A stretch of 64,000 bases of DNA. Source: a virus (taxonomy: Duplodnaviria > Caudoviricetes). Shown here piece after piece: positions 1,544-15,631 of this stretch (positions are counted from its first letter, which is position 1; the number at the start of each line of letters is the position of its first letter). The notes below the pieces were generated by a model. That model was not told the origin of the DNA. It saw only the letters and a program-made list of their open reading frames with translations, and did not search any database. Both the position numbers and the translations under genes were made by a program. The stretch lies in IMG/VR virus record IMGVR_UViG_2695420965_000002, positions 444 to 64,443 of that record, one strand, 5' to 3'.

Positions 1544-1812
1544 GAATCCTCCTCTTCGTTCTCGTAATTCTCTTCTTCGGGGAGTTCCTCAATCACCAGA
1601 ACTCCTTCGTTGTCCCCAATCATGAAGGCGTCCTCGCCTGTCTCAAGCTCCCACTTTCGCCCCTTCTCAAGCACAGCGACGGGATACTCCATAACGTTTC
1701 TGTGCCGTCGGATTTTGCGCGATGCCCTCGCCCGGCACACTTCCATCGTGCCCTCGCCGATCAGGTCGTCGCGCCCGCCTGAGTATGGGTAAAGTCGCAA
1801 CCTGTAACTCAC
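1540..1812 (-). CDS. hypothetical protein with acidic tail
   Basis: coupled ORF in the operon. Confidence 0.65.
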   Translation of the reverse strand: MSYRLRLYPYSGGRDDLIGEGTMEVCRARASRKIRRHRNVMEYPVAVLEKGRKWELETGEDAFMIGDNEGVLVIEELPEEENYENEEEDS

Positions 1813-3011
1813 TCGTCCACCTCCTCTGTGCCGTCCGCGACCTTGTCCTGCGGCTCGTTACTGAACGTCTGGATGACTCCGTTCTGTTCGACCACGCGGA
1901 TGACCGTGATCATCCGCTCGCTGTAGACATCCTTCGTGGTAACAGCCCCAGTGTCGGGGTTCGACTCGCTTTTCGACTGTTCCTTGTTGTGGTACTCAAC
2001 CTTGTGCGACGATCCGCGAACGACGTGGACGCCATACGGCCCCTCAACCGGGCCGTCCAGCATTCCGGAGGCGAGAATCAGACCTAGGTGTCCCTTGTCG
2101 AGCGGCAGCGGCGGGGAGTTCGGAGGCGGTATCTTAACCTCTTTCAATTGCTTGTTGAGCGGGCTGTCAGCAACCGCCTCGCGAAGCTCGTCATCAGTGA
2201 ACATCGTCTTCCTGAAGACGTTCGGCTTCCACGAGAGCGGGATCTCCCAGGTCCGGATATCCTCTTCGCGGTCATAGCTCGGATGGCTACCGTTCCATCC
2301 TTTCGGCTGCACCATGCCGAGCGCCGGCAATGACTCGATCGAGAGGTAGCCACGCCATCTCATCTCCATCTGGTGGAGCTTGCCGTGGTTCTGGGCCGCT
2401 TCACTCGGAAGCACATCTTTGCGCTTCCGGCCAATGACGACGATCTCGCGGTACGGCCGGATCAGGTTGCCGGCCTCGTCTTCGCCATCAGGGAACTTGT
2501 AGACCGCCACGTCCTCGTAGTGGGCGTCGATGTACTCAACGAAGTTGCCGTTGCCACACAAGGCGGTGAACGGGCAGACGAGAACGAGAATGCCCTTTTG
2601 CCCAAGGAGCCGAGTCGCCTTCTCTGTGAAGCCCTGCTCTTCGCGTTTCCCGCCCCCGAGTTCACTGTCAAACGGCGGGTTGACGTAGGCGAGGCCGAAC
2701 GAGAAACCAGTGATCTGAACCCCGGTGAAGCTCGCCGGCCCGATGTGATTCGACATCGGCATCAGCTTCAGGATGTCCTTCGACCGCTCCGAGTCCAGCT
2801 CGATCGAGTAGACGTGTTCCTCGGGGACGGCCAGGGCATCAGCCAACTGCTTGATCGCTAGGCCCTTGCCGGCGCAAGGGTCGATAATATTGATGGTGTC
2901 GTACTTCTTCGCGGGGTCCAGCGATCGGCAATACAGGTGCTTAGAAAGCTCGGCGATCGCCATCGTATGGGCTGGGTAGAAACCAGCCTTCGCTTGAGCA
3001 GCAAGCCTCAT
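1809..3011 (-). CDS. DUF6094-type SAM-dependent (N6-adenine-like) methyltransferase
   Basis: MRLAAQAKAGFYP N-terminus, motif I DPCAGKG, IELD, motif IV NPPF. Confidence 0.8.
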   Translation of the reverse strand: MRLAAQAKAGFYPAHTMAIAELSKHLYCRSLDPAKKYDTINIIDPCAGKGLAIKQLADALAVPEEHVYSIELDSERSKDILKLMPMSNHIGPASFTGVQITGFSFGLAYVNPPFDSELGGGKREEQGFTEKATRLLGQKGILVLVCPFTALCGNGNFVEYIDAHYEDVAVYKFPDGEDEAGNLIRPYREIVVIGRKRKDVLPSEAAQNHGKLHQMEMRWRGYLSIESLPALGMVQPKGWNGSHPSYDREEDIRTWEIPLSWKPNVFRKTMFTDDELREAVADSPLNKQLKEVKIPPPNSPPLPLDKGHLGLILASGMLDGPVEGPYGVHVVRGSSHKVEYHNKEQSKSESNPDTGAVTTKDVYSERMITVIRVVEQNGVIQTFSNEPQDKVADGTEEVDE

Positions 3012-4711: not shown

Positions 4712-5227
4712 TCACCCCGATCCGGTTGCCTCTAGTTTCCCTCTGAGAGCCTTGAGGGCCGCGTCATGGATCTTGCGGCCGTGCCTGGCACCATGCCCGA
4801 GCGCCACACCCGCCTCGCTCGGCGACATGTTCATCTTGTAGACCAACGAGCAAATCTCTCGCTGCTTCTTTGGGAGAACTTTCAAGAGACTCGCGAAGTG
4901 ATCGTCGGACTCGCGATCGAGCGTCTCGTTGCTCGTGTCCACGATCTCAGATAACTCCTCGGGCGTTGCCAGCTCGCAGCGTTCCGGGCCGAGCTTTCTA
5001 AGGTAATCCTTAATCTCTCCGCGAATCTGCAGCCCTGCCCATCGCTTCCAGACTCCGTTCTTATTAGGCTCGAAACTCGCAGCGGCACGCACGACACCTA
5101 AGGTTGCCCGACTCTTGAGTTCGTCCTCATGAAGCGGGTAGATACGTGCGTACCGCCTGGCGATGTGTTCCGCCCGGCTGACTGACTTTTCTGCGAGAGC
5201 TTTCTTTTCTTCAGTCAGACGATCCAT
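4712..5227 (-). CDS. sigma-70 family RNA polymerase sigma factor (regions 2 and 4)
   Basis: DELKSRATLGVVRAAASFEP...WAGLQIRGEIKDYLR (region 2); LPKKQREICSL...SPSEAGVALG (region 4 HTH). Confidence 0.8.
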   Translation of the reverse strand: MDRLTEEKKALAEKSVSRAEHIARRYARIYPLHEDELKSRATLGVVRAAASFEPNKNGVWKRWAGLQIRGEIKDYLRKLGPERCELATPEELSEIVDTSNETLDRESDDHFASLLKVLPKKQREICSLVYKMNMSPSEAGVALGHGARHGRKIHDAALKALRGKLEATGSG

Positions 5228-6498: not shown

Positions 6499-6781
6499 GA
6501 TAAGCGGCTCCAGGAATCACCTGGAACCCGTTGTCGTACAGGAACTTACGGACTACGGTGGCCGTCGCGACTGCGCGTTCGTACTCGTCAATAAAATGCT
6601 TCAGCCCGGTGTCTGCGAGCATGTTTGGGATTTTGCGAGGGTCACGCGGAATGTGGAGTTCGTGGGAAACGCTGCCGTGGCAGAAAATGTACCCCTCGAT
6701 TCCCTGCTGTCCGAGTTCTATGATCGCGTTACACGCCGTCATGTTGACGTGAACGTGGCCTACCTTGACCCAAGTTTTCAT
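6476..6781 (-). CDS. hypothetical protein
   Basis: ATGA-coupled start at 6781 (MKTWVKV...). Confidence 0.55.
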   Translation of the reverse strand: MKTWVKVGHVHVNMTACNAIIELGQQGIEGYIFCHGSVSHELHIPRDPRKIPNMLADTGLKHFIDEYERAVATATVVRKFLYDNGFQVIPGAAYRGREEGQ

Positions 6782-6987
6782 TGGCTTTGTCTGGCTCCCT
6801 TGATCTTGAAGTTGATACACACGTTGATAACGGGATTGTCCTGTGTGTCCCATTCGCTGATCGCGGCGTTGATCGCCTCGCGAATTGACACGAACTTAGC
6901 GAACCGCTTCGGGAGGTGAATGTTGCCCACCTGGCGATGCAGGCAGATCGCCAGCTCGCCAGGTGTCGAAGGGACGACTCGCTTCAT
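6778..6987 (-). CDS. hypothetical protein
   Basis: ORF with GAGG RBS. Confidence 0.55.
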   Translation of the reverse strand: MKRVVPSTPGELAICLHRQVGNIHLPKRFAKFVSIREAINAAISEWDTQDNPVINVCINFKIKGARQSQ

Positions 6988-7002
6988 AAAGTGGTTTTAA
7001 CC

Positions 7003-7341
7003 TCAGTTTCCGGCGACCGTCTCCGCCGACTCTGGCTGCAACTGCTCAGGAAGATTGCCGGGAGCCTCGCGGACCTCATCGTCTTCAGGTTCCACCCCAA
7101 AGCACTCCTCAGCCTCATCTGCGTAGGCGGCGAGCCGCGTCGCAAGCTCCCTCAGGCCCTTCGGGCTCGACGTGAATCGCAGATCGCAAATCTCGGCAGC
7201 TTTTGAAAGCTTGTCTTCCCTTCCGATTCCGTAGAAAGGCTTACTGCAGATCAAGACAACCTCAACGCAGGGGACCGGCTCGGCGATGCCGTCAAGGATC
7301 AATCCGGACAGGTTGCGTGCAGAACCGATAAACGAAAGCAT
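7003..7341 (-). CDS. hypothetical protein directly downstream of hammerhead HH1
   Basis: GGAG RBS 7 nt before ATG. Confidence 0.65.
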   Translation of the reverse strand: MLSFIGSARNLSGLILDGIAEPVPCVEVVLICSKPFYGIGREDKLSKAAEICDLRFTSSPKGLRELATRLAAYADEAEECFGVEPEDDEVREAPGNLPEQLQPESAETVAGN

Positions 7342-7357
7342 TCGTCAACTCCAAGGT

Positions 7358-7413
7358 GGCCTCATCAGGTGGAAGAATACTCCACGACCGCTCGTCCTTG
7401 AGCGGTTTCGGCC
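7358..7413 (-). ncRNA. type II hammerhead ribozyme HH1
   Basis: minus strand GGCC-GAAA-CCGCUC(aaggac)GAGCGG-UC^-GUGGA(guauucu)UCCAC-CUGAUGA-GGCC; complete core, all three stems pair. Confidence 0.92.
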
Positions 7414-8225
7414 TACGCGGCTCCAGCGACCTGCTTCGTCGCCTTCTTTTCCGAGGCGAGCTTCGGCTTCGCCGCCGGCTTCTTCTTTGGTTTGGCCGGC
7501 GGGAAGACGATAGCGTCACGAGCCGTTACGAGATCGAGGTACATCCGGTACTCAGTGACCTCTTTTGCTGTGTATCCGTTAGAACGGCCGATCGCGCGAA
7601 TGTGTTCCTTCCAGTGTGCGATACTGTGGAACTGGCATCCGATCGACATCATTCCAGCCGAATAATGGCAGACGGCATGTCGTGAGCCCTGGATAAAAAG
7701 GGGAGATTTCTCGAAAACAGCCCCTTCACCGACGCTGGCCCGATCACCGACGCTGGCCCGATCACCGACGCGGGCCCCTTCACCGACGCGGGCCCATGCA
7801 CCGACGCTGGCCCCTTCACCGACGCGGGCCCCTTCGCCGACGCGGGCCCCTTCACCGACGCGGGCCCATGCACCGACGCTGGCCCGATCACCGACGCGGG
7901 CCCCTTCACCGACGCGGGCCCATGCACCGACGCTGGCCCCTTCACCGACGCGGGCCCCTTCGCCGACGCGGGCCCCTTCACCGACGCGGGCCCGATCACC
8001 GACGCGGGCCCCTTCACCGACGCGGGCCCATGCACCGACGCGGGCCCCTTCACCGACGCTGGCCCGATCACCGACGCGGGCCCCTTCACCGACGCTGGCC
8101 TCAATATGAACCCATCCTCCGGTTGAAAGTCGGCTCCAGTCAGAGGATTTCGTGCCAGGGTGGCGGTTAAGAACCCACGACGGCACTTCGGGTTTAACTT
8201 CCTGCTGCTCGATATTCGTTTCCAC
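7413..8225 (-). CDS. hexapeptide-repeat (left-handed beta-helix) protein
   Basis: 21 x A[RS]VG(EG/DR/AW) units followed by a phage-typical IGCQFHSIAHW tail; GTG start after GGAGAG. Confidence 0.8.
   Translation of the reverse strand: METNIEQQEVKPEVPSWVLNRHPGTKSSDWSRLSTGGWVHIEASVGEGARVGDRASVGEGARVGAWARVGEGARVGDRARVGEGARVGEGARVGEGASVGAWARVGEGARVGDRASVGAWARVGEGARVGEGARVGEGASVGAWARVGEGARVGDRASVGDRASVGEGAVFEKSPLFIQGSRHAVCHYSAGMMSIGCQFHSIAHWKEHIRAIGRSNGYTAKEVTEYRMYLDLVTARDAIVFPPAKPKKKPAAKPKLASEKKATKQVAGAA
7722..8099. repeat. 18-bp coding tandem repeat, 21 copies
   Basis: unit approx ccgacgcgggccccttca with a few recurring variants. Confidence 0.95.
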
Positions 8226-8362
8226 TTTTGCACTCTCCGAGTTAAGAAAACATTGGGTCAGATAGATCAGTTCGCATTGCTTCGTTCTGCGGGAAGGCTG
8301 CCCTTGCATTTAGAACGCTAAGAACGCTCCCTAGCTATCGCCGGGAGCGTTTCCGAGACGTA

Positions 8363-8731
8363 CTACGCGGCGTCGAAAGCGGCCAGTTCGTCATCCGAGG
8401 GAAGCGTGCCGGTGGCCGGTTCGGGCGCAGGTTCCGGGGCCGGGGCTGGGGTGGGCTCGGACTTCGCGGACGACTTCTTGGTGGATGTGTCTTCGGTTTG
8501 GGTCGGAGCGGTGGGCTTCAGGGCCAACGCGCCCTTGAAGAGTTGTTTCCCGCCCTTGTCGGGGTCGCCCTCATAGACGCGGATCGTCAGCGCGTCCTCG
8601 TAGAACTCGATCACGATTGGGGCCGGCTCGACACCTGCCGCGCCAATCTCCAGGATATTGCCGTTCTTGCTCACGTTGATCTCAGCCTGCCCGCTCTTAC
8701 GCGGGGCACCGTCTTTCAGGGTGACTTTCAT
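8363..8731 (-). CDS. hypothetical protein with Pro/Ala-rich tail
   Basis: GGAG RBS then ATG 8731 (MKVTLKDG...). Confidence 0.7.
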   Translation of the reverse strand: MKVTLKDGAPRKSGQAEINVSKNGNILEIGAAGVEPAPIVIEFYEDALTIRVYEGDPDKGGKQLFKGALALKPTAPTQTEDTSTKKSSAKSEPTPAPAPEPAPEPATGTLPSDDELAAFDAA

Positions 8732-8752
8732 CGAACTAACTCCAAGCGTCGT

Positions 8753-8803
8753 GGCCTCATCAGTACCGGCACGCACCGGCAGACGCCCGAAGGCGTTTCG
8801 GCC
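8753..8803 (-). ncRNA. type II hammerhead ribozyme HH2
   Basis: GGCC-GAAAC-GCC(uucg)GGC-GUC^-UGCCGG(ugcgug)CCGGUA-CUGAUGA-GGCC. Confidence 0.92.
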
Positions 8804-9184
8804 TCAAAGATCGAGACCTTCGGAGTCGTCTCGGTCAGGCGTGAGAACGTCGACCGCTTCTTCGTCCTCCAGTTCGTCGACCAGATCCTCGTCGTCCTCT
8901 TCTTCGTCTTCATCCTCGTCGAAGTCGTCCTCATCCTCTTCGTCCTCATCTTCGTCGCGAGCGGCCTCCTTGAGCTTGTTGAGCACCTCCTGGACTACGC
9001 CGTCCGGCTCCTCGTTTTCGTGGTAGCGACCCTTGATCTCATCAATCAACTCGTCCGCCAAGTACGGGTCTTGATTGGCGTCGGCCCAATTCACCAAGAT
9101 CGTAATGATCTGGGTGTCGCCGACAATCATGGTGTTAGGCTCGTCGTGGTCTTCGATTTGGATCAGCACGAATGGACGGGGCAT
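8804..9184 (-). CDS. highly acidic hypothetical protein
   Basis: GAGGTG RBS; long D/E tract. Confidence 0.7.
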   Translation of the reverse strand: MPRPFVLIQIEDHDEPNTMIVGDTQIITILVNWADANQDPYLADELIDEIKGRYHENEEPDGVVQEVLNKLKEAARDEDEDEEDEDDFDEDEDEEEDDEDLVDELEDEEAVDVLTPDRDDSEGLDL

Positions 9185-9207
9185 CTCGCACCTCATTAAA
9201 GAATGTT

Positions 9208-9257
9208 AGCCTCATTAGGTGACGCATCACGCCACAAGCCCCGTAGGGCTTTCGGCC
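9208..9257 (-). ncRNA. type II hammerhead ribozyme HH3, core variant CUAAUGA (G5A)
   Basis: GGCC-GAAA-GCCC(uacg)GGGC-UU^-GUGGCG(ugaug)CGUCAC-CUAAUGA-GGCU. Confidence 0.8.
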
Positions 9258-9258
9258 T

Positions 9259-9732
9259 TCAGATCGAGCAGACGACGCTTCGTGTGGTTGTGGTGTGGTG
9301 CTCGGTCACAACCTTGCATTTGTCGGTAGGATTGATCTTGCGTCGATAAGATATGGTGATCGACGGGTACTCTTTCGATCGGAGAGACACGAGTATTACC
9401 GAGTCATCTCCATTAACTGTGTCCTTTCCGCAGTTCTCAAAAGCACCCAAAACTCGGACGTAATCCGGGATCTCGTTCGCGTCCAGTCTCGCGTCCGCTG
9501 AGTCTGTGTAAAGCCAGGTCATCTTCAACCCAGCCTTTTCGAGTTTCTCGCACGCCTCATAATGTTTTGCGATGTTCGCTGCATCGCGAATCTTTCTTGA
9601 CTCATGAGAATCGTTGGATTCTTGAATTGCTTCGGCCAGCGTTCGGGAACGCACCCGGAATGCGTCCTCGGTGGGCATCTGCTCGATCACGCCGACAGTC
9701 ACATCGCCGGCACTTAAGGTTGCAGTGCTCAT
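9259..9732 (-). CDS. hypothetical protein
   Basis: GAGGTG RBS; flanked by HH4 and HH3. Confidence 0.7.
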   Translation of the reverse strand: MSTATLSAGDVTVGVIEQMPTEDAFRVRSRTLAEAIQESNDSHESRKIRDAANIAKHYEACEKLEKAGLKMTWLYTDSADARLDANEIPDYVRVLGAFENCGKDTVNGDDSVILVSLRSKEYPSITISYRRKINPTDKCKVVTEHHTTTTRSVVCSI

Positions 9733-9756
9733 GTTCACCTCGTCATGCCAAAGAAG

Positions 9757-9813
9757 AGCCTCATCAGTGCGGGAACCAACCCGCAGACCGCTCGTCCTTG
9801 AGCGGTTTCGGCC
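9757..9813 (-). ncRNA. type II hammerhead ribozyme HH4
   Basis: GGCC-GAAA-CCGCUC(aaggac)GAGCGG-UC^-UGCGGG(uugguu)CCCGCA-CUGAUGA-GGCU; stem III identical to HH1. Confidence 0.92.
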
Positions 9814-10053
9814 TCAGTAGCGAAGCGATGGCTGCGCGATTGCCACCTGATCGAACGCCCTGAGAGACGTCAAAGACTCATTGGGGATGTAGTCGGTTTG
9901 CTGCGAACGTGCCGCCTCAGCCGGAACGAGCTTTCGATAAACTTGAGCCACCGCCGAAGACGCGTTTGACGCCACTACGTAATACCGATTTCCACGGTAG
10001 TCGACGCGGAACCGCTGAACCTTGCCGCGATACAGATTAGTCATAACACTCAT
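9814..10053 (-). CDS. small basic hypothetical protein
   Basis: GAGGA RBS before ATG 10053; flanked by HH5 and HH4. Confidence 0.65.
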   Translation of the reverse strand: MSVMTNLYRGKVQRFRVDYRGNRYYVVASNASSAVAQVYRKLVPAEAARSQQTDYIPNESLTSLRAFDQVAIAQPSLRY

Positions 10054-10078
10054 GTGATTCCTCGGTGCGTAAATGGTT

Positions 10079-10129
10079 GGCCTCATCAGAACGGGCTTTA
10101 CCCGTTAACGCCCAGCGGGCGTTTCGGCC
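10079..10129 (-). ncRNA. type II hammerhead ribozyme HH5
   Basis: GGCC-GAAAC-GCCC(gcu)GGGC-GUU^-AACGGG(uaaag)CCCGUU-CUGAUGA-GGCC. Confidence 0.9.
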
Positions 10130-10171
10130 TCAGTAAAGCTCGTTTCTCCGAACAGGCTCTTGCTCGGCGTC

Positions 10172-10522
10172 CTAGGTGGCCTTCTCGGTAGGAATCAGCA
10201 CGATCAACGTACCCTCAGCGTTGTAGAAACCGAGATTGCGGCCAGCCTTCTCGATCGCTTCCTTGGATTCTCTGAGCCCAAGCCCGGTTCGGTTACGGTG
10301 CGCCTTGATGGCGTCGATCTTTCCGCCATTGCGAGCCGTCAAAAGCTCGCTCAGATTCGGCTCAGCCGACGCGACCACCTCTCTGATGGTCGCCTGCGGT
10401 GGGGCTGGTTCGGGTCCAACCACCGTGCGAATCAAATTGATGATGCCGGCTTGTAATTCCTGGAACTCCGAGCCGAGGCCGGAAAGCTGCTGGATCGCAC
10501 ACATCTTCTCGTAGGCGTTCAT
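10172..10522 (-). CDS. ribosomal protein L7/L12 C-terminal-domain-like protein
   Basis: KIDAIKAHRNRTGLGLRESKEAIE matches the bL12 CTD consensus KI.AIK..R..TGLGLKEAK..VE. Confidence 0.75.
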   Translation of the reverse strand: MNAYEKMCAIQQLSGLGSEFQELQAGIINLIRTVVGPEPAPPQATIREVVASAEPNLSELLTARNGGKIDAIKAHRNRTGLGLRESKEAIEKAGRNLGFYNAEGTLIVLIPTEKAT

Positions 10523-10542
10523 TCGTCGCATCTCCATTAGAT

Positions 10543-10594
10543 GGCCTCATCAGGCACCGCCTTACGGTGCAAGCCGCCGATGCGGCTTTCGGCC
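10543..10594 (-). ncRNA. type II hammerhead ribozyme HH6
   Basis: GGCC-GAAA-GCCGC(aucg)GCGGC-UU^-GCACCG(uaagg)CGGUGC-CUGAUGA-GGCC. Confidence 0.9.
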
Positions 10595-10595
10595 T

Positions 10596-10904
10596 TCAGA
10601 TACCGACGCAACCGTCACCGTCGCTGCTCCTCTTTGCCGTTGTGAAGTAATTCGTGATACTCACGGCAAGCGTAGACATGATTCGGGAGCAGACATCGCG
10701 GACGTCTTCGGGAGAGGATTCACCTGGGACAAGCTCACGAACCAGGAAGATTTGCTCCTGCTCAACCGCACCAAGCTCGATCCTCACGTCGTTGCCAACC
10801 AGGCGGTAGAGCGCGGTAAGGTCGGCCCCTAGGCACCATTTCCGGAAGTTGTTCCTGGCCTCAGAAACGATGTCAAGTTGCGGCTTCGTCACGAATTCGA
10901 TCAT
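10596..10904 (-). CDS. hypothetical protein
   Basis: ORF whose stop abuts HH6. Confidence 0.65.
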   Translation of the reverse strand: MIEFVTKPQLDIVSEARNNFRKWCLGADLTALYRLVGNDVRIELGAVEQEQIFLVRELVPGESSPEDVRDVCSRIMSTLAVSITNYFTTAKRSSDGDGCVGI

Positions 10905-10924
10905 GAATCTTGTCCCCGATGTTG

Positions 10925-11215
10925 TTAAGGTTTGTCTAATCCGTGATGTCTACGTACTCTCTGATCGAAGTATTCCCAAGCTCGGGCTAAAGCTCCCGGA
11001 TTGTCGTTAGGAACGTAGTGGCCATCAGTGAAACCCGCGTTGAGAACCTGGGTGTGGACGACATACTCCTTGCCACTCCATTCGCGGAGCACAACGCGGT
11101 GAGGTAGTGAGCATTCTCCTTTGCGCCAAGGCCCTGCTGCGATGATGTCGGCGAACCTGTAGCGAGCGAGAAGCGCAGCCTCCTCGTCGCTCAACGTGTA
11201 GAGCGTGTCACTCAT
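10925..11215 (-). CDS. hypothetical protein
   Basis: GAGG RBS before ATG 11215. Confidence 0.6.
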   Translation of the reverse strand: MSDTLYTLSDEEAALLARYRFADIIAAGPWRKGECSLPHRVVLREWSGKEYVVHTQVLNAGFTDGHYVPNDNPGALARAWEYFDQRVRRHHGLDKP

Positions 11216-11223
11216 TGGTGCCC

Positions 11224-11337
11224 TCAGTTGGTTAGCCACTGGTCGATGACCAGCAACCCATAGATCACAATTACCGAAAGAGCAGCGTAAAATTCAGAAC
11301 GACGCATCCGTGGGAGCGTAAAGCACCCGAACCGCAT
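11224..11337 (-). CDS. small membrane protein
   Basis: GGAG RBS; MRFGCF...ALSVIVIYGLLVI hydrophobic helix. Confidence 0.5.
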   Translation of the reverse strand: MRFGCFTLPRMRRSEFYAALSVIVIYGLLVIDQWLTN

Positions 11338-11432
11338 GGATTCTCCACGTAAAGAGTGTTCATAGGGTAATTGGGCGTGGAAATCGCGAGCGGCTCCGAG
11401 TTGTGATACGGAGTCCGCCCGTTGGCCTGTCA

Positions 11433-11648
11433 TTACACAGGCTGGGGGGTGAGGAAGAACTCCTCAGTGACTTGTTCAGCGATGGCATACGCGAGGGCCG
11501 ATTCGGGAGAGATTCCGAGCCGGTCTGCGATGATTTGAAGATCAGAGGGATGGCCGTTGGCGTAGAGAATGTGGTCGTGGGCGATCCGCGTTACACGCTC
11601 AATATGTGGCCGATCCTCGCAAAGAGGTGACTGCGATTTTCCTGCCAT
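11433..11648 (-). CDS. hypothetical protein
   Basis: ORF in the operon. Confidence 0.5.
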   Translation of the reverse strand: MAGKSQSPLCEDRPHIERVTRIAHDHILYANGHPSDLQIIADRLGISPESALAYAIAEQVTEEFFLTPQPV

Positions 11649-11651
11649 AGA

Positions 11652-12227
11652 TTATATCCGTTGTCCTTGGATTAGTTTCGTCTCGGCCTTCGGCGGCATG
11701 CAACGGCGCTTCGGTTCCGAGTCGTCATTCTGCGTCCTTGCTTTGGGCTGCGAGTCAACGGCGACCCGACAAAGGCCCGTCTCGCGTCTGATTTGGGTCA
11801 GGCGCTCGTTATTCTGCATACTTAGGGTAGGGAGCCAGCGTACCTTGCCGACTCCGAGGATGTGGAAGTAGATTTCGATGGTATTGGGGCGCGAGCCAGG
11901 CAAGATTGCGAGTTCGATCCCCATCTCATTGCCGTCCGCCTGCATTGTCGTGAGCGTCTTGAGGAACGACCGACAGCAAGCCGACTCGGCCTTGTTCTTG
12001 CATCCGACGCGAGTCACGAGGTACTCACGCAAGAGCATGGTCGCGGCCTTGTGTGGCGGTAGCCTGCGGATCCAACCCAATCGTTTAGGCGGGTCCAGGT
12101 GTCGCACCGATCCGGACATGTCAGAGAGGCGAAGGTTAGGGCCGTCTTCAGGCACGAAGACTGGCGTTCCGGTGTCGTCATGTCTCAGGTACAAGCGTCC
12201 TCCCTTGTCGTTAGCGTGTCGAAACAT
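11652..12227 (-). CDS. hypothetical protein (start uncertain)
   Basis: ORF track; no recognisable motif. Confidence 0.4.
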   Translation of the reverse strand: MFRHANDKGGRLYLRHDDTGTPVFVPEDGPNLRLSDMSGSVRHLDPPKRLGWIRRLPPHKAATMLLREYLVTRVGCKNKAESACCRSFLKTLTTMQADGNEMGIELAILPGSRPNTIEIYFHILGVGKVRWLPTLSMQNNERLTQIRRETGLCRVAVDSQPKARTQNDDSEPKRRCMPPKAETKLIQGQRI

Positions 12228-12238
12228 TCAGAATGTTT
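12222..12238. promoter_or_regulatory. 17-bp palindrome AAACATTCAGAATGTTT, copy 1
   Basis: exact duplicate at 14114-14130. Confidence 0.6.
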
Positions 12239-12404
12239 GGCGGGTTCAAGGCGGGGATTAATCCCCCTCGGCAGCGTTCCCACTACCAAGCCTAACGAAC
12301 CCACTATCCGCCCCAGTGGGCAGATAGACGCCTATCGATGGCTACGATGCGGACGTGACAGACGTGGAACATCCCGGACCGCGAACGGAGGGGTTCGACC
12401 ACGG

Positions 12405-12460
12405 AGCCTCATCAGCGTGGGCCTAACCCACGGACGGAGCACCCCTGCCCCGTTTCGGCT
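12405..12460 (-). ncRNA. type II hammerhead ribozyme HH7
   Basis: AGCC-GAAAC-GGGGCA(gggg)UGCUCC-GUC^-CGUGGG(uuagg)CCCACG-CUGAUGA-GGCU; compensatory A-U pair in stem II. Confidence 0.92.
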
Positions 12461-12468
12461 TGGACGGA

Positions 12469-12678
12469 TTACGAGCCGACTAACGGATCGCTCAGTTGGC
12501 ATAATCCGGGACTGTGCATGTTGATTTTCCGAGCGCAGACTCCGCAATATAACGCCTCAGTGCTGCAATTCCAGTAGCGGGCCGGCACGGCTCTACACGC
12601 CTTTCGGTTACAAGGCTCGTTCTTGGCCGGTTGACGGGTTTGCGGTCTTCCACCAGGAGGAATCCCAGCGTCTTCCAT
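12469..12678 (-). CDS. small Cys-rich (zinc-binding) phage protein
   Basis: CNRKAC...YCGVCARKIN; GGAGG RBS; stop 8 nt before HH7. Confidence 0.65.
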   Translation of the reverse strand: MEDAGIPPGGRPQTRQPAKNEPCNRKACRAVPARYWNCSTEALYCGVCARKINMHSPGLCQLSDPLVGS

Positions 12679-12718
12679 GCAATTGCCTCCAAAAAGGGCT
12701 TCGGATCAGACATAGAAA

Positions 12719-12764
12719 GGTCGGGGCGGGAATCGAACCCGCCCGGCAAGGCATCCCTTCGACC
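12719..12764 (-). ncRNA. minimal tRNA-like element B (acceptor-like stem + T-arm)
   Basis: GGUCG-aagggaugccuugccg-GGCGGG-UUCGAUU-CCCGCC-c-CGACC; no D or anticodon arm. Confidence 0.6.
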
Positions 12765-12783
12765 GTGAGCTATAGCTCACAAT

Positions 12784-13722
12784 TCAAGCGGCAACCGCGA
12801 CTTTGGCGGGTTCAGAAGCACGACCAGCGGCACGGGCCTTGTCAATGGCCGAGACCATCTTGTCCAGCTTGTCACGCAAGGCGACCATTTCGGTGTACTT
12901 GCCCGAAGAGAACATGGCGAGCGCCAGCAACTCGCAATCCTTGAGGGTGCAAGAGGCCGGATCGAACCCGACAGCGTTCGCGGGCAACGGCTTACCGTGG
13001 GCCTTGGCGACGTTCTCCAAGATCGACAGAGCGGCTTCCGGGGTAACGGCACCCTTAGCGAGACCGTCACTCAGAGAAGTCGTGATATCCTCCGTCGCCT
13101 TGGCGGCATCGCGAGCCTGCTTCTTGACGGCGGTAGCTGCCGCTTCAAGAGCCGCTTTCGCCGGATTCAGAGCCGCCTTGGCATCCGCGATCCTCTTCAC
13201 TGTCGCCTGAATACGATTCGTGAAGTCCTCGCGAGTAACCCTGGTGCCTTGCGATCGTTCCGCCGCGACACCCCGGATCATGTCCAACCAACCTTCGTTG
13301 ATCGAGCCTTCCAAGTCCTTCGACGTGAAGTGCAGAGCCTTCCCGACGATGGCCAGGTACTCGAACATCGAGAGCGAGTCAGCGGCGTCGGCAATCTCAG
13401 CCCGGACGAGTTCGCGGAGCACGTGGCACCGCGTCCAATCCGAAACCCTGATCGACTCAGCCTTGATCGAGACGTAGATGCGAACCTCATCGCGAATCCG
13501 GCTCATCAGCTTGTCGAAATCACCGCTTCCGTAGTCGTTGATGGAACCCTTCTGCCATTGGGCGTGCTCGAAAGCACGCTTGCCGATGGCGAAATTCCGG
13601 GCACCCTCTTCGGTGTACTTGGCGGTAATCATCTCGACGATTTCCGCAACCGCCGTCTCATGAACGGAGGCCCGATTGTCGCTGACGATGCCGTTCGTGC
13701 TGGTGTTGGTGTCGGCGGACAT
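12784..13722 (-). CDS. hypothetical protein, first gene of the leftward early operon
   Basis: strong host-like codon bias from ATG 13722 (MSADTNTS...); the upstream extension in the ORF track covers structured RNA. Confidence 0.75.
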   Translation of the reverse strand: MSADTNTSTNGIVSDNRASVHETAVAEIVEMITAKYTEEGARNFAIGKRAFEHAQWQKGSINDYGSGDFDKLMSRIRDEVRIYVSIKAESIRVSDWTRCHVLRELVRAEIADAADSLSMFEYLAIVGKALHFTSKDLEGSINEGWLDMIRGVAAERSQGTRVTREDFTNRIQATVKRIADAKAALNPAKAALEAAATAVKKQARDAAKATEDITTSLSDGLAKGAVTPEAALSILENVAKAHGKPLPANAVGFDPASCTLKDCELLALAMFSSGKYTEMVALRDKLDKMVSAIDKARAAGRASEPAKVAVAA

Positions 13723-15481: not shown

Positions 15482-15631
15482 GGCTCAACCCCTCATTATT
15501 TCACGTCCGCCATGCGTCTCAAGGGGAGCCCGAAATCACAGGCGGGCAACTGCCATTATCCAGCCTATCCCGCAAGGTCTACCAAGTGCAACCCTTTTGA
15601 TAGTCGTCCGATTTGCATAAAAGCAATAGCA

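What the first reader, a model, noticed from the sequence alone, without database searches (positions are those of the whole stretch)
7358..12460. Array of seven type II hammerhead ribozymes punctuating a phage early operon
Seen: seven intergenic copies on the coding (minus) strand of RGCC-GAAA-[stem III]-NUH-[stem I]-CUGAUGA-GGCY at 7358-7413, 8753-8803, 9208-9257, 9757-9813, 10079-10129, 10543-10594 and 12405-12460. Stem sequences differ between copies but always pair. Six start at or within 8 nt of the upstream stop codon (TAGGCC, TGAGGCC, TGAAGGCC), and six end shortly before the next RBS. Established: CUGANGA, GAAA and NUH joined by three stems form the hammerhead core, an open stem II defines type II, and intergenic hammerheads are known near phage genes. 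Inference: the array cuts one long early transcript without protein into mostly single-gene mRNAs. Each would carry a 5'-OH and a 5' hairpin, which could stabilise it and uncouple expression of the genes. Predicted cuts fall at 12433/12432, 10571/10570, 10107/10106, 9786/9785, 9236/9235, 8782/8781 and 7386/7385, giving fragments of 1862, 464, 321, 550, 454 and 1396 nt. I saw no such motif in the other operons.
Basis: partly seen in the sequence, partly recalled or inferred. Interest (0 to 1): 0.95.

Follow-up and report, generated by a model that had tools for sequence, protein, structure and literature searches.

The report
Hammerhead ribozyme array in a prophage
Seven small self-cutting RNA motifs (six intact, one probably dead) sit between the small accessory genes of a prophage and probably chop one long message into single-gene pieces, a layout known in prophages since 2011.

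Summary
Seven type II hammerhead motifs lie on the minus strand at the stated coordinates, and all seven predicted cut sites and six fragment sizes check out. A generic type II descriptor finds exactly six hits in the whole 10.7 Mb genome, all in this array, with none in a reversed-genome control. The only one-mismatch hit is the seventh copy. That copy (9208-9257) reads CUAAUGA (G5A), not CUGAUGA as stated, and its lowest-energy fold is not the hammerhead, so it is probably dead. Stems pair in every copy with different sequences.

Rfam misses all seven at its gathering score. These copies have a 4-bp stem II and a short loop I and show no clear pseudoknot.

The interpretation (cutting a polycistronic message) is plausible but not new. 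Perreault et al. 2011 described and tested clustered prophage hammerheads and proposed this role. IMG/VR phage contigs sampled here hold arrays of 4-11 such motifs. This scan has already noted hammerhead arrays on other DNA (207 notes, at least 157 genomes).

"Early operon" and transcription remain untested.

Verdict: a genuine but ordinary new member of a known kind.

The parts
12405..12460 (-). HH1. Type II hammerhead with intact core, GUC site, predicted cut 12433/12432. Stem II is AGCC/GGCU and loop I is UUAGG. It starts 8 nt after the TAA of the 69-aa ORF and is followed by a 177-nt leader rather than an RBS.
   Evidence: Scores 69.7 bits with model R1 and 27.0 bits with Rfam. A counterpart in genome G053 scores 54.9 bits with R1, has the same loop I and two compensatory stem I pairs.
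10543..10594 (-). HH2. Type II hammerhead with intact core, CUU site, predicted cut 10571/10570. It starts 1 nt after a TGA, and an RBS GGAGA lies 8 nt downstream.
   Evidence: Scores 51.4 bits with R1. It is the only copy whose stem II stays probable with 40-nt flanks. It shares 18 identical nt with HH5.
10079..10129 (-). HH3. Type II hammerhead with intact core, GUU site, predicted cut 10107/10106. It is abutted by an in-frame TGA that lies 13 codons after the gene's TAG stop.
   Evidence: Scores 61.2 bits with R1 and 26.7 bits with Rfam.
9757..9813 (-). HH4. Type II hammerhead with intact core, GUC site, predicted cut 9786/9785. It abuts a TGA. Loop III is AAGGAC.
   Evidence: Scores 56.8 bits with R1 and 29.8 bits with Rfam. 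Its 29-nt 5' half is identical to that of HH7.
9208..9257 (-). HH5. Hammerhead-derived copy with the core CUAAUGA (G5A) and a CUU site. All three stems can pair, but the lowest-energy fold is a different structure. Probably inactive or very slow.
   Evidence: It is the only one-mismatch hit in the genome. MFE and centroid are not the hammerhead fold. Mean probability of the hammerhead pairs is 0.46, and 0.21 for stem II. CTAATGA occurs in 1 of 139 aligned hammerheads. Scores 43.8 bits with R1.
8753..8803 (-). HH6. Type II hammerhead with intact core, GUC site, predicted cut 8782/8781. It abuts a TGA.
   Evidence: Scores 50.3 bits with R1 and 28.8 bits with Rfam.
7358..7413 (-). HH7. Type II hammerhead with intact core, GUC site, predicted cut 7386/7385. 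Its first G is the last base of a TAG stop. Loop III is AAGGAC.
   Evidence: Scores 57.8 bits with R1.
10596..12227 (-). Block of five abutting or overlapping small ORFs (191, 71, 69, 104 and 102 aa) between HH1 and HH2. No family match.
10172..10537 (-). Single gene between HH2 and HH3, with a weak ribosomal L7/L12 C-terminal-domain match. The likely start is the ATG at 10522.
   Evidence: Pfam PF00542, 26.9 bits against a cut-off of 25.9. Translation.
9814..10053 (-). Single orphan gene between HH3 and HH4.
8804..9738 (-). Two orphan genes (9259-9738 and 8804-9196, the latter with a very acidic C-terminal tail) separated only by the crippled HH5.
7413..8776 (-). Two genes between HH6 and HH7: an orphan of 137 aa and a hexapeptide-repeat (left-handed beta-helix) protein of 298 aa. 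No hammerhead lies between them.
   Evidence: Pfam PF00132 at 1.4e-23. phrog_5353 at 1.6e-29.
15495..15522 (-). Best sigma-70-like promoter match upstream of the array (10 of 12 positions, with an extended -10 TG). A candidate start for the leftward transcript; consensus match only.
   Evidence: In all, 5 promoter-like sites were found against 2.7 expected.

Best explanation
These are genuine type II hammerhead self-cleaving ribozymes, six with a complete catalytic core and one decayed copy. They lie in the gaps of a leftward operon of small accessory genes in a prophage.

Proposed mechanism (inferred from established hammerhead chemistry):
- As the long transcript is made, each intact ribozyme folds into its three-way junction and cuts after H17.
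- The two products are held together only by the 4-bp stem II, so they separate.
- The upstream message keeps its stop codon plus about 25-30 nt, ending in the stem III hairpin with a 2',3'-cyclic phosphate.
- The downstream message starts with a 5'-OH at the foot of the stem I hairpin, followed within 5-15 nt by its RBS.
- The operon is thus cut into one five-gene piece, two single-gene pieces, one two-gene piece spanning the dead copy HH5, and one more two-gene piece. Each piece has a hairpin at both ends.

What is shown: motif, topology, covariation, restriction to this operon, and placement between stop codon and RBS.

What is inferred: transcription as one unit, cleavage in vivo, and any effect on stability or expression.
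For: Core and topology:
- All 13 conserved core positions and all three core-adjacent pairs are present in 6 of 7 copies.
- The genome-wide descriptor gives 6 hits, all in the array, against 0 in the reversed genome. The one-mismatch scan adds only the seventh copy.
- No type I or type III hammerhead is found.

Structure:
- Six of 7 copies have the hammerhead junction as both MFE and centroid fold.
- Stems differ between copies but always pair: 42/42 and 28/28 cells, against 48% when strands are swapped between copies.
- In an alignment of 139 hammerheads from the window and 99 viral loci, 95.6% of cells pair, against 63% in shuffles and at most 44% when partners are slid. The covariation score is 0.724 against 0.149.

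Conservation:
- HH1 has a counterpart in another genus, G053, scoring 54.9 bits with R1. It has the same loop I and two compensatory changes in stem I, and lies next to homologues of the neighbouring gene.

Placement rule in viral contigs:
- 110 of 132 viral hammerheads start -2 to +14 nt from the stop of an ORF of at least 40 codons, against 156 of 1320 random positions.
- 111 of 132 have an ORF start within 45 nt, against 636 of 1320.

Precedent:
- Clustered prophage hammerheads cleave in vitro, and in E. coli when cloned (PMC3088659).
- Three type II hammerheads near phage-like genes cleave in vivo in Desulfovibrio vulgaris (PMC8782182, abstract and passages).

Context:
- The surroundings are prophage: serine recombinase, sigma factor, antirepressor, helicase, ParB, primase, Erf and large terminase.
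Against: - No copy reaches Rfam's gathering score: 0 of 7. Only 4 of 7 appear at 26.7-29.8 bits.
- No clear tertiary contact was found. The best complementarity between loop I and the 3' tail is 3-4 bp. In the aligned set, short-loop hammerheads average 2.8 bp and long-loop, pseudoknot-type ones average 4.5 bp. Perreault et al. found such contacts critical for fast cleavage in the constructs they tested.
- With 40-nt flanks at thermodynamic equilibrium, stem II has a probability below 0.31 in 6 of 7 copies. The fold may therefore depend on co-transcriptional timing or on ribosomes clearing the upstream flank.
- Three of 7 copies have U at the cleavage position (CUU, GUU, CUU), which is rare in the aligned set: UU occurs in 7 of 139.
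- HH5 has G5A. From recall of the classic mutational studies, not from a call, this is strongly inactivating.
- There is no evidence here of transcription or of RNA ends.
Confidence: 0.82

Rival explanations
1. The hammerheads are also, or mainly, boundaries of gene cassettes at the DNA level. Their conserved halves would serve as short homologies at which phages swap or duplicate accessory-gene cassettes, and cleavage would be secondary.
For: - HH4 and HH7 share an identical 29-nt block, 9786-9814 and 7386-7414. It runs from the last base of the stop codon exactly to the cleavage position and is flanked by unrelated sequence on both sides.
- HH2 and HH5 share 18 identical nt spanning the stop codon, stem II and GAAA.
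- The flanked genes are orphans of varied kinds.
Against: - The blocks are short and there are only two such pairs.
- Duplication of a ribozyme half followed by selection on RNA structure explains them equally well.
- Intact cores with covarying stems point to selection at the RNA level.
- No comparison of related prophages with different cassette content was possible. The neighbouring gene was found in only 1 of 401 sampled genomes of the phylum, G000 itself.
Confidence: 0.1
2. Cleavage is followed by re-ligation. All copies share the same stem II, so the two ends of an excised unit (or of different units) can reassemble a complete hammerhead and be joined, giving circular or rearranged RNAs.
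For: - Stem II is GGCC paired with GGCC or GGCU in six copies and AGCC with GGCU in one. Stems I and III all differ.
- An excised unit carries the stem I, CUGAUGA and stem II strand at its 5' end, and the stem II strand, GAAA and stem III at its 3' end. This follows from the anatomy.
- Perreault et al. raise spliced or circular products as a possibility.
Against: - Perreault et al. looked for such products and did not detect them.
- Uniformity of stem II is general. Across 8 arrays, 87 of 155 within-array pairs are identical, and stem II is also the most uniform stem between loci (0.185). That set is biased by my search pattern, which fixed three of the four stem II pairs.
- A 4-bp helix is weak, and no RNA data are available.
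Confidence: 0.05
3. The motifs are non-catalytic structured intergenic repeats. Pairs of GC-rich hairpins would act as barriers to exonucleases, or as pause or termination signals, and only resemble hammerheads.
For: - Sub-threshold Rfam scores.
- No evident tertiary contact.
- Stem II is disfavoured when flanks are included in the fold.
Against: - A hairpin barrier would not need GAAA, UH and CUGAUGA to be kept letter for letter in six copies while every stem changes.
- The same core with covarying stems recurs in 132 viral hits.
- Close relatives of the motif cleave in vitro and in vivo.
Confidence: 0.05

Closest known systems
Clustered hammerhead ribozymes flanking single genes or short gene blocks in prophages (Perreault et al. 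2011, PMC3088659; passages read)
   Same: - Several hammerheads lie on one strand between small, non-conserved genes of a prophage.
- Type II topology.
- The proposed role is processing of a long phage transcript into single-gene or operon-length mRNAs.
   Different: - The arrangements named in the passages I read are triples, and I could not see the figures or supplements. Here there are seven copies, six of them intact.
- These copies have a 4-bp stem II and a short loop I and lack the clear loop I to 3'-tail pseudoknot that the paper describes for most type II examples.
- Cleavage was tested there and not here.
Rfam RF02276 Hammerhead_II
   Same: The core, the topology and the order of elements are the same. 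RF02276 is the best-scoring Rfam family for 4 of the 7 copies.
   Different: - All seven copies score below the 37-bit gathering cut-off.
- The model expects a 2-bp stem II followed by a tail that pairs with loop I. Here the alignment has to gap the longer stem II and force the tail.
- The same under-scoring holds for similar viral arrays. For L167, 0 of 9 copies reach the cut-off. For L150, 3 of the 11 copies that model R1 finds do (8 by my strict descriptor). The pseudoknot-type array L162 gives six hits at 40-58 bits.
Type II hammerheads of Desulfovibrio vulgaris shown active in vivo by cyPhyRNA-seq (PMC8782182; abstract and passages read)
   Same: Type II hammerheads near hypothetical and phage-like genes in a bacterial chromosome. 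The same end chemistry is expected (5'-OH and 2',3'-cyclic phosphate).
   Different: Those are three separate loci rather than an array in one operon. Activity was measured there and not here.
Arrays of the same short-loop type II hammerhead in uncultured phage contigs
   Same: - Stem II of 4-5 bp.
- Stem I of 6 bp closed by a 5-nt loop of the form U-N-A-N-G.
- An A just before stem II.
- A stop codon abutting the ribozyme, often as TGA-A-GGCC, and an RBS directly after it.
   Different: - No protein similarity to the window's array genes was found by tblastn of 20 window ORFs against all fetched loci.
- Those arrays are larger and denser: 11 copies within about 5 kb and 9 copies within about 3 kb.
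Synthetic ribozyme insulators such as RiboJ (recalled, not from any call)
   Same: Works alike: a self-cleaving hammerhead placed before an RBS gives the downstream message a defined 5' end with a hairpin, independent of what lies upstream.
   Different: An engineered single element derived from a type III satellite-RNA ribozyme, not a natural type II array. This is an analogy only.

Membership tests
Hammerhead ribozyme (clan CL00010) | Conserved core: C3 U4 G5 A6 N7 G8 A9, G12 A13 A14, the A15.1-U16.1 pair, and H17 (not G). | tested here: met
   Met in 6 of 7 copies. Not met in 9208-9257, which has A at position 5.
Hammerhead ribozyme (clan CL00010) | Three helices around the core, with intact pairs next to the core (10.1-11.1, 1.1-2.1, 15.1-16.1). 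| tested here: met
   7 of 7 copies. Stem I is at least 6 bp, stem II is 4 bp and stem III is at least 4 bp, with no mispair in the counted positions. The hammerhead junction is the MFE fold in 6 of 7.
Hammerhead ribozyme (clan CL00010) | Covariation that keeps the helices. | tested here: met
   Among the 7 copies there are 2-5 pair types per stem I position and 2-3 per stem III position. All cells pair, against 48% when strands are swapped. On 139 aligned sequences, 95.6% of cells pair and the covariation score is 0.724 against 0.149 in shuffles. That alignment was fitted to the model, which favours the structure.
Hammerhead ribozyme (clan CL00010) | Self-cleavage after H17 giving a 2',3'-cyclic phosphate and a 5'-OH. 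| not testable with these tools
   No RNA data were obtained, so no laying of reads was attempted.
Type II hammerhead (Rfam RF02276) | Permutation: stems I and III closed by loops, stem II open. | tested here: met
   7 of 7 copies.
Type II hammerhead (Rfam RF02276) | Score at or above Rfam's gathering cut-off of 37 bits. | tested here: not met
   0 of 7 copies. The best scores are 29.8, 28.8, 27.0 and 26.7 bits. The shortfall traces to the longer stem II and the unmatched pseudoknot tail, not to the core.
Type II hammerhead (Rfam RF02276) | Pseudoknot of four or more pairs between loop I and the 3' tail. Perreault et al. describe this for a majority of type II examples, so it is typical rather than obligatory. 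| tested here: inconclusive
   The best complementarity is 3-4 bp per copy, which is near the mean of 2.8 bp for short-loop hammerheads and below the 4.5 bp of long-loop ones.
Clustered prophage hammerheads (Perreault et al. 2011) | Several hammerheads on one strand flanking single genes or short gene blocks within a prophage. | tested here: met
   Seven copies within 5.1 kb, all on the minus strand, bounding units of 5, 1, 1, 1, 1 and 2 genes. Prophage genes lie on both sides.

The most novel reading that the evidence does not exclude
The array may be more than a set of independent scissors.

- All copies share one 4-bp stem II, and each excised unit carries complementary half-ribozymes at its two ends. 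Units could therefore re-close on themselves or on each other, giving circular or reshuffled mRNAs.
- The stop codon abuts stem II, so a terminating ribosome would melt the ribozyme. Cutting would then be gated by translation of the upstream gene.
- The 29-nt half shared by HH4 and HH7 ends exactly at the cleavage position. This would fit cassettes that move as the excised unit.
Probability: 0.06. Interest if true: 0.7.

Novelty: new member of a known kind. Interest (0 to 1): 0.3.

Why it matters
What bacterial and phage hammerheads are for is still an open question, as two reviews say (PMC6765202 and PMC6155905, passages read). This array adds no new principle, but it is useful in three ways.

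1. It is a clean seven-copy case in a near-complete 10.7 Mb genome. It also contains a natural inactive control copy (G5A), so a single RNA-end experiment after prophage induction could test processing at six sites and one null at once.
2. It shows that Rfam's gathering score misses a whole sub-type: 4-bp stem II, 5-nt U-N-A-N-G loop I, no evident pseudoknot. The misses are 0 of 7 copies here and 0 of 9 in a viral array. Hammerhead arrays are therefore probably under-annotated.
3. Across 132 viral hits the ribozyme begins at the upstream stop codon and ends just before the next RBS. The type II permutation leaves one hairpin on each product. Together these give a concrete, testable rationale for why this permutation is the one used between phage genes.

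Tried and rejected
- Rfam at gathering score over the whole window: nothing.
- ARAGORN: no tRNA.
- The genome search with RF02276 on the window's own genome: only 150 of 6503 candidates were scored and only one array copy was recovered, so I replaced it with my own descriptor on the laid genome.
At that database size the pattern mostly matches by chance, and I drew no conclusion from it.
- Pattern over the 121 genomes of the order: 7 genomes match including G000. Only G053's match is a hammerhead by model R1 (54.9 bits). The other five score 14.3-24.7 bits. The two other genomes of the genus have no match.
- Rfam E-value scan of the G053 locus: no hammerhead was listed, although R1 finds one.
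- tblastn of 20 window ORFs against all fetched loci: only the 417-aa ORF matched, twice, in G053. There were two other weak hits for the hexapeptide-repeat protein.
- That 417-aa protein (312-aa form) in 401 sampled genomes of the phylum: found only in G000, with this query at E <= 1e-10.
- Pfam and PHROGs on the array genes: almost all are orphans.
- Sequencing runs: no RNA holder was listed.
- Test of whether stem II is unusually uniform within arrays: inconclusive, because my search pattern fixed most of stem II.
- Literature on large phage arrays: apart from Perreault 2011 and the two reviews, no listed title or abstract concerned arrays of this size. I opened only PMC8782182 among the other listed papers. 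Supplements and figures were not seen, so array sizes in Perreault's Figure 3 and datasets may bear on this.
- Rejected reading: chance occurrence.
- Rejected reading: a further ribozyme class in the gaps that lack a hammerhead. The Rfam E-value scan of 6500-13500 lists only the four hammerhead hits and two noise hits.

Full report
**What is there.** I number the copies HH1 to HH7 in the direction of the minus strand. Read that way, the stretch 12460 to 7358 holds seven copies of one layout: a 4-nt strand (GGCC, once AGCC), GAAA, a hairpin, U plus a non-G base, a second hairpin, CUGAUGA, and a 4-nt strand (GGCC or GGCU) that pairs with the first.

One statement needs correcting. The copy at 9208-9257 (HH5) reads CUAAUGA, not CUGAUGA.

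**More than chance.**
- A pattern made of the two core strands with part of stem II hits six times in the window, all on the minus strand, against none in 100 shuffles.
- The same six are the only hits in the whole 10.69 Mb genome, with none for the backwards control.
- I laid the genome and wrote a generic type II descriptor that fixes only GAAA, UH and CUGANGA and asks for perfect stems of at least 4, 2 and 3 pairs. It finds six hits in the genome, all in the array, and none in the reversed genome.
- Relaxing one core letter adds a single hit in 10.7 Mb, HH5.
- Descriptors for types I and III find nothing.
- A covariance model built from 24 such copies (7 from the window, 17 viral) scores the seven at 43.8-69.7 bits with filters off. 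The next best hit in the window scores 15.3 bits. The seven were in the training set, so this shows only that there is no eighth copy.

**Structure.**
- Folded alone, six of the seven have the hammerhead three-way junction as both minimum-energy and centroid structure. HH5 folds otherwise.
- The hammerhead pairs of HH5 have a mean probability of 0.46, and its stem II 0.21.
- Counting outward from the core, every one of 42 stem I cells and 28 stem III cells is a standard pair, with 2-5 different pair types per stem I position. If the 5' strand of one copy is matched with the 3' strand of another, only 122 of 252 and 80 of 168 cells pair.
- Stem II is nearly invariant. Only its outer pair varies (A-U, G-C, G-U).
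- In an alignment of 139 model hits from the window and 99 of the 120 viral loci, 95.6% of cells pair, against 63% in shuffles and at most 44% when partners are slid. That alignment is fitted to the model, which favours the structure.

**Points against an easy reading.**
- Rfam gives no hit at its gathering score. At relaxed thresholds only four of seven appear, as Hammerhead_II at 26.7-29.8 bits against a cut-off of 37. The alignments show why: the model expects a 2-bp stem II followed by a tail that pairs with loop I.
- I found no convincing loop I to tail pairing (3-4 bp per copy).
- With 40-nt flanks at equilibrium, stem II is outcompeted in six of seven copies.
- Three copies have U at the cleavage position, which is rare in the aligned set (7 of 139).
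- G5A is, from my recall of the classic mutational work and not from any call, a strongly inactivating change. CTAATGA is unique among the 139 aligned cores. I therefore read HH5 as a decaying copy, so the genes 9259-9738 and 8804-9196 probably stay on one piece of 1004 nt.

**Context.** The window is a prophage.
- A serine recombinase lies at 332-1282, a methyltransferase at 1809-3011 and a sigma-factor-like gene at 4712-5227.
- An antirepressor, helicase, ParB, primase and Erf lie on the minus strand at 29.9-36.3 kb.
- The large terminase and structural genes lie on the plus strand from 37.3 kb.
- The genes between the ribozymes are small orphans. The exceptions are a weak L7/L12 C-terminal-domain match and a hexapeptide-repeat protein.
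- The best promoter-like site upstream is at 15522-15495 on the minus strand, and no strong terminator-like site lies on that strand across the array.
- "Early operon" is thus a reasonable guess from position, not a result.

**Placement.** Six copies start -1 to 8 nt from the upstream stop codon. HH3 is abutted by an in-frame TGA that lies 13 codons beyond the gene's TAG stop. Six are followed within 5-15 nt by a GGAG-type RBS. HH1 is instead followed by a 177-nt leader.

This placement is general. Of 132 model hits in viral contigs, 110 begin -2 to +14 nt from the stop of an ORF of at least 40 codons, against 156 of 1320 random positions. Of the same 132, 111 have an ORF start within 45 nt, against 636 of 1320.

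**Relatives.**
- In the 121 genomes of the order, only one other genome (G053, another genus) has a hammerhead of this kind (54.9 bits with R1). It has the same UUAGG loop I as HH1 and two compensatory changes in stem I. It sits between two homologues (62% and 54% identity) of the 417-aa gene that precedes HH1.
- The two other genomes of the genus have no match.
By my strict descriptor, 85 hold at least one type II hammerhead and 20 hold two or more, with single-strand arrays of 5, 6, 8 and 9 and none in the reversed control.
- By the model, arrays reach 11 copies (L150), 9 (L167), 6 (L162) and 5 (L168).

**Two sub-types in the aligned set**.
- One has a long loop I and about 4.5 bp of pairing to the 3' tail.
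- The other (61 of 139 hits) has a 5-nt loop I of the form U-N-A-N-G, a stem II mostly of 4 bp, and an A just before stem II in 57 of 61.
- The window's array belongs to the second, as do L150 and L167.
- Rfam's gathering score finds 0 of 9 in L167 and 3 of the 11 copies that the model finds in L150 (8 by my descriptor). It gives six hits in the pseudoknot-type array L162.

**Mechanism.** Shown: motif, topology, covariation, restriction to one operon, and placement between stop codon and RBS.

Inferred from established hammerhead chemistry:
- Each intact copy cuts after H17.
- The products, held only by the 4-bp stem II, separate.
- The upstream RNA keeps its stop codon plus 25-30 nt, ending in the stem III hairpin with a cyclic phosphate.
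- The downstream RNA begins with a 5'-OH at the base of the stem I hairpin, just ahead of its RBS.
- The type II permutation is the one that leaves a hairpin on both products, which may be why it is used between genes.
- Because the stop codon abuts stem II, a terminating ribosome would unfold the ribozyme. Whether this gates cutting is open.

**What is known.** Perreault et al. 2011 (PMC3088659; passages and section 8 read, figures and supplements not seen) state that multiple hammerheads often flank single genes or short gene blocks in prophages. They showed cleavage for three tandem arrangements in vitro and for one in E. coli. They proposed processing of long phage transcripts, and mentioned spliced or circular products, which they did not detect. 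Two reviews repeat this and call the function open. Type II hammerheads near phage-like genes cleave in vivo in Desulfovibrio vulgaris. Earlier notes of this scan list hammerhead arrays on other DNA (207 notes in at least 157 genomes, arrays up to about 30 copies). I did not check those notes.

**Verdict.** This is a real hammerhead array with six intact copies and one degenerate copy, and a new member of a known kind. The modest extras are the short-loop sub-type that Rfam under-scores, the natural null copy, and the stop-codon rule. Interest is 0.3.

Noticed in passing
window 9786-9814 and 7386-7414 (minus strand): HH4 and HH7 share an identical 29-nt block. It runs from the last base of the stop codon exactly to the cleavage position, with unrelated sequence on both sides. 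HH2 and HH5 share 18 identical nt (10584-10601 and 9247-9264).
   Followed up: partly
window 10130-10174 (minus strand): The L7/L12-CTD-like gene stops at a TAG. Thirteen sense codons later an in-frame TGA abuts HH3, as stop codons do at the other copies. This suggests either a recent nonsense change or readthrough.
   Followed up: partly
window 8245-8362 (minus strand): The one long gap in the array without a hammerhead holds GAAA followed by a 6-bp hairpin and UU, then a long imperfect hairpin, but no CUGANGA. It may be a decayed eighth copy. Neither my descriptors nor model R1 detect it.
   Followed up: partly
window 12718-12803 (minus strand): A tRNA-like piece with a textbook T-arm lies between the 417-aa ORF and the 69-aa ORF, just upstream of HH1. 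Rfam tRNA-Sec gives only 19 bits (E 5.3) and ARAGORN calls no tRNA. The fold has z = -2.1.
   Followed up: partly
window 12228-12404 (minus strand) and L133 10072-10273: The leader after HH1 resembles the stretch after the G053 hammerhead, including a hairpin of the form AAACAT...ATGTTT. This was seen by eye only and was not aligned.
   Followed up: no
L133 9965-10071 (G053): The G053 hammerhead is preceded by a half copy (stem II strand, GAAA, a hairpin with an AAGGAT loop). Its own stem III carries an inserted extra hairpin. The AAGGAY loop III also occurs in HH4 and HH7, but in none of the 132 viral hits.
   Followed up: partly
window 7413-8309 (minus strand): The hexapeptide-repeat gene is built of near-identical 18-nt DNA units. 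Repeats were seen at 7720-7755, and by eye through about 7740-8110.
   Followed up: no
window 8804-9196 (minus strand): A 130-aa orphan protein with an extremely acidic Asp/Glu-rich C-terminal half, with no family match. Acidic proteins next to hammerheads recall the ardA case in Perreault et al., but no similarity was tested.
   Followed up: no
L150 174-5156 (minus strand) and L167 2150-5077 (plus strand): Uncultured phage contigs carry 11 and 9 short-loop type II hammerheads within about 5 kb and 3 kb. Rfam's gathering score catches 3 and 0 of them.
   Followed up: partly
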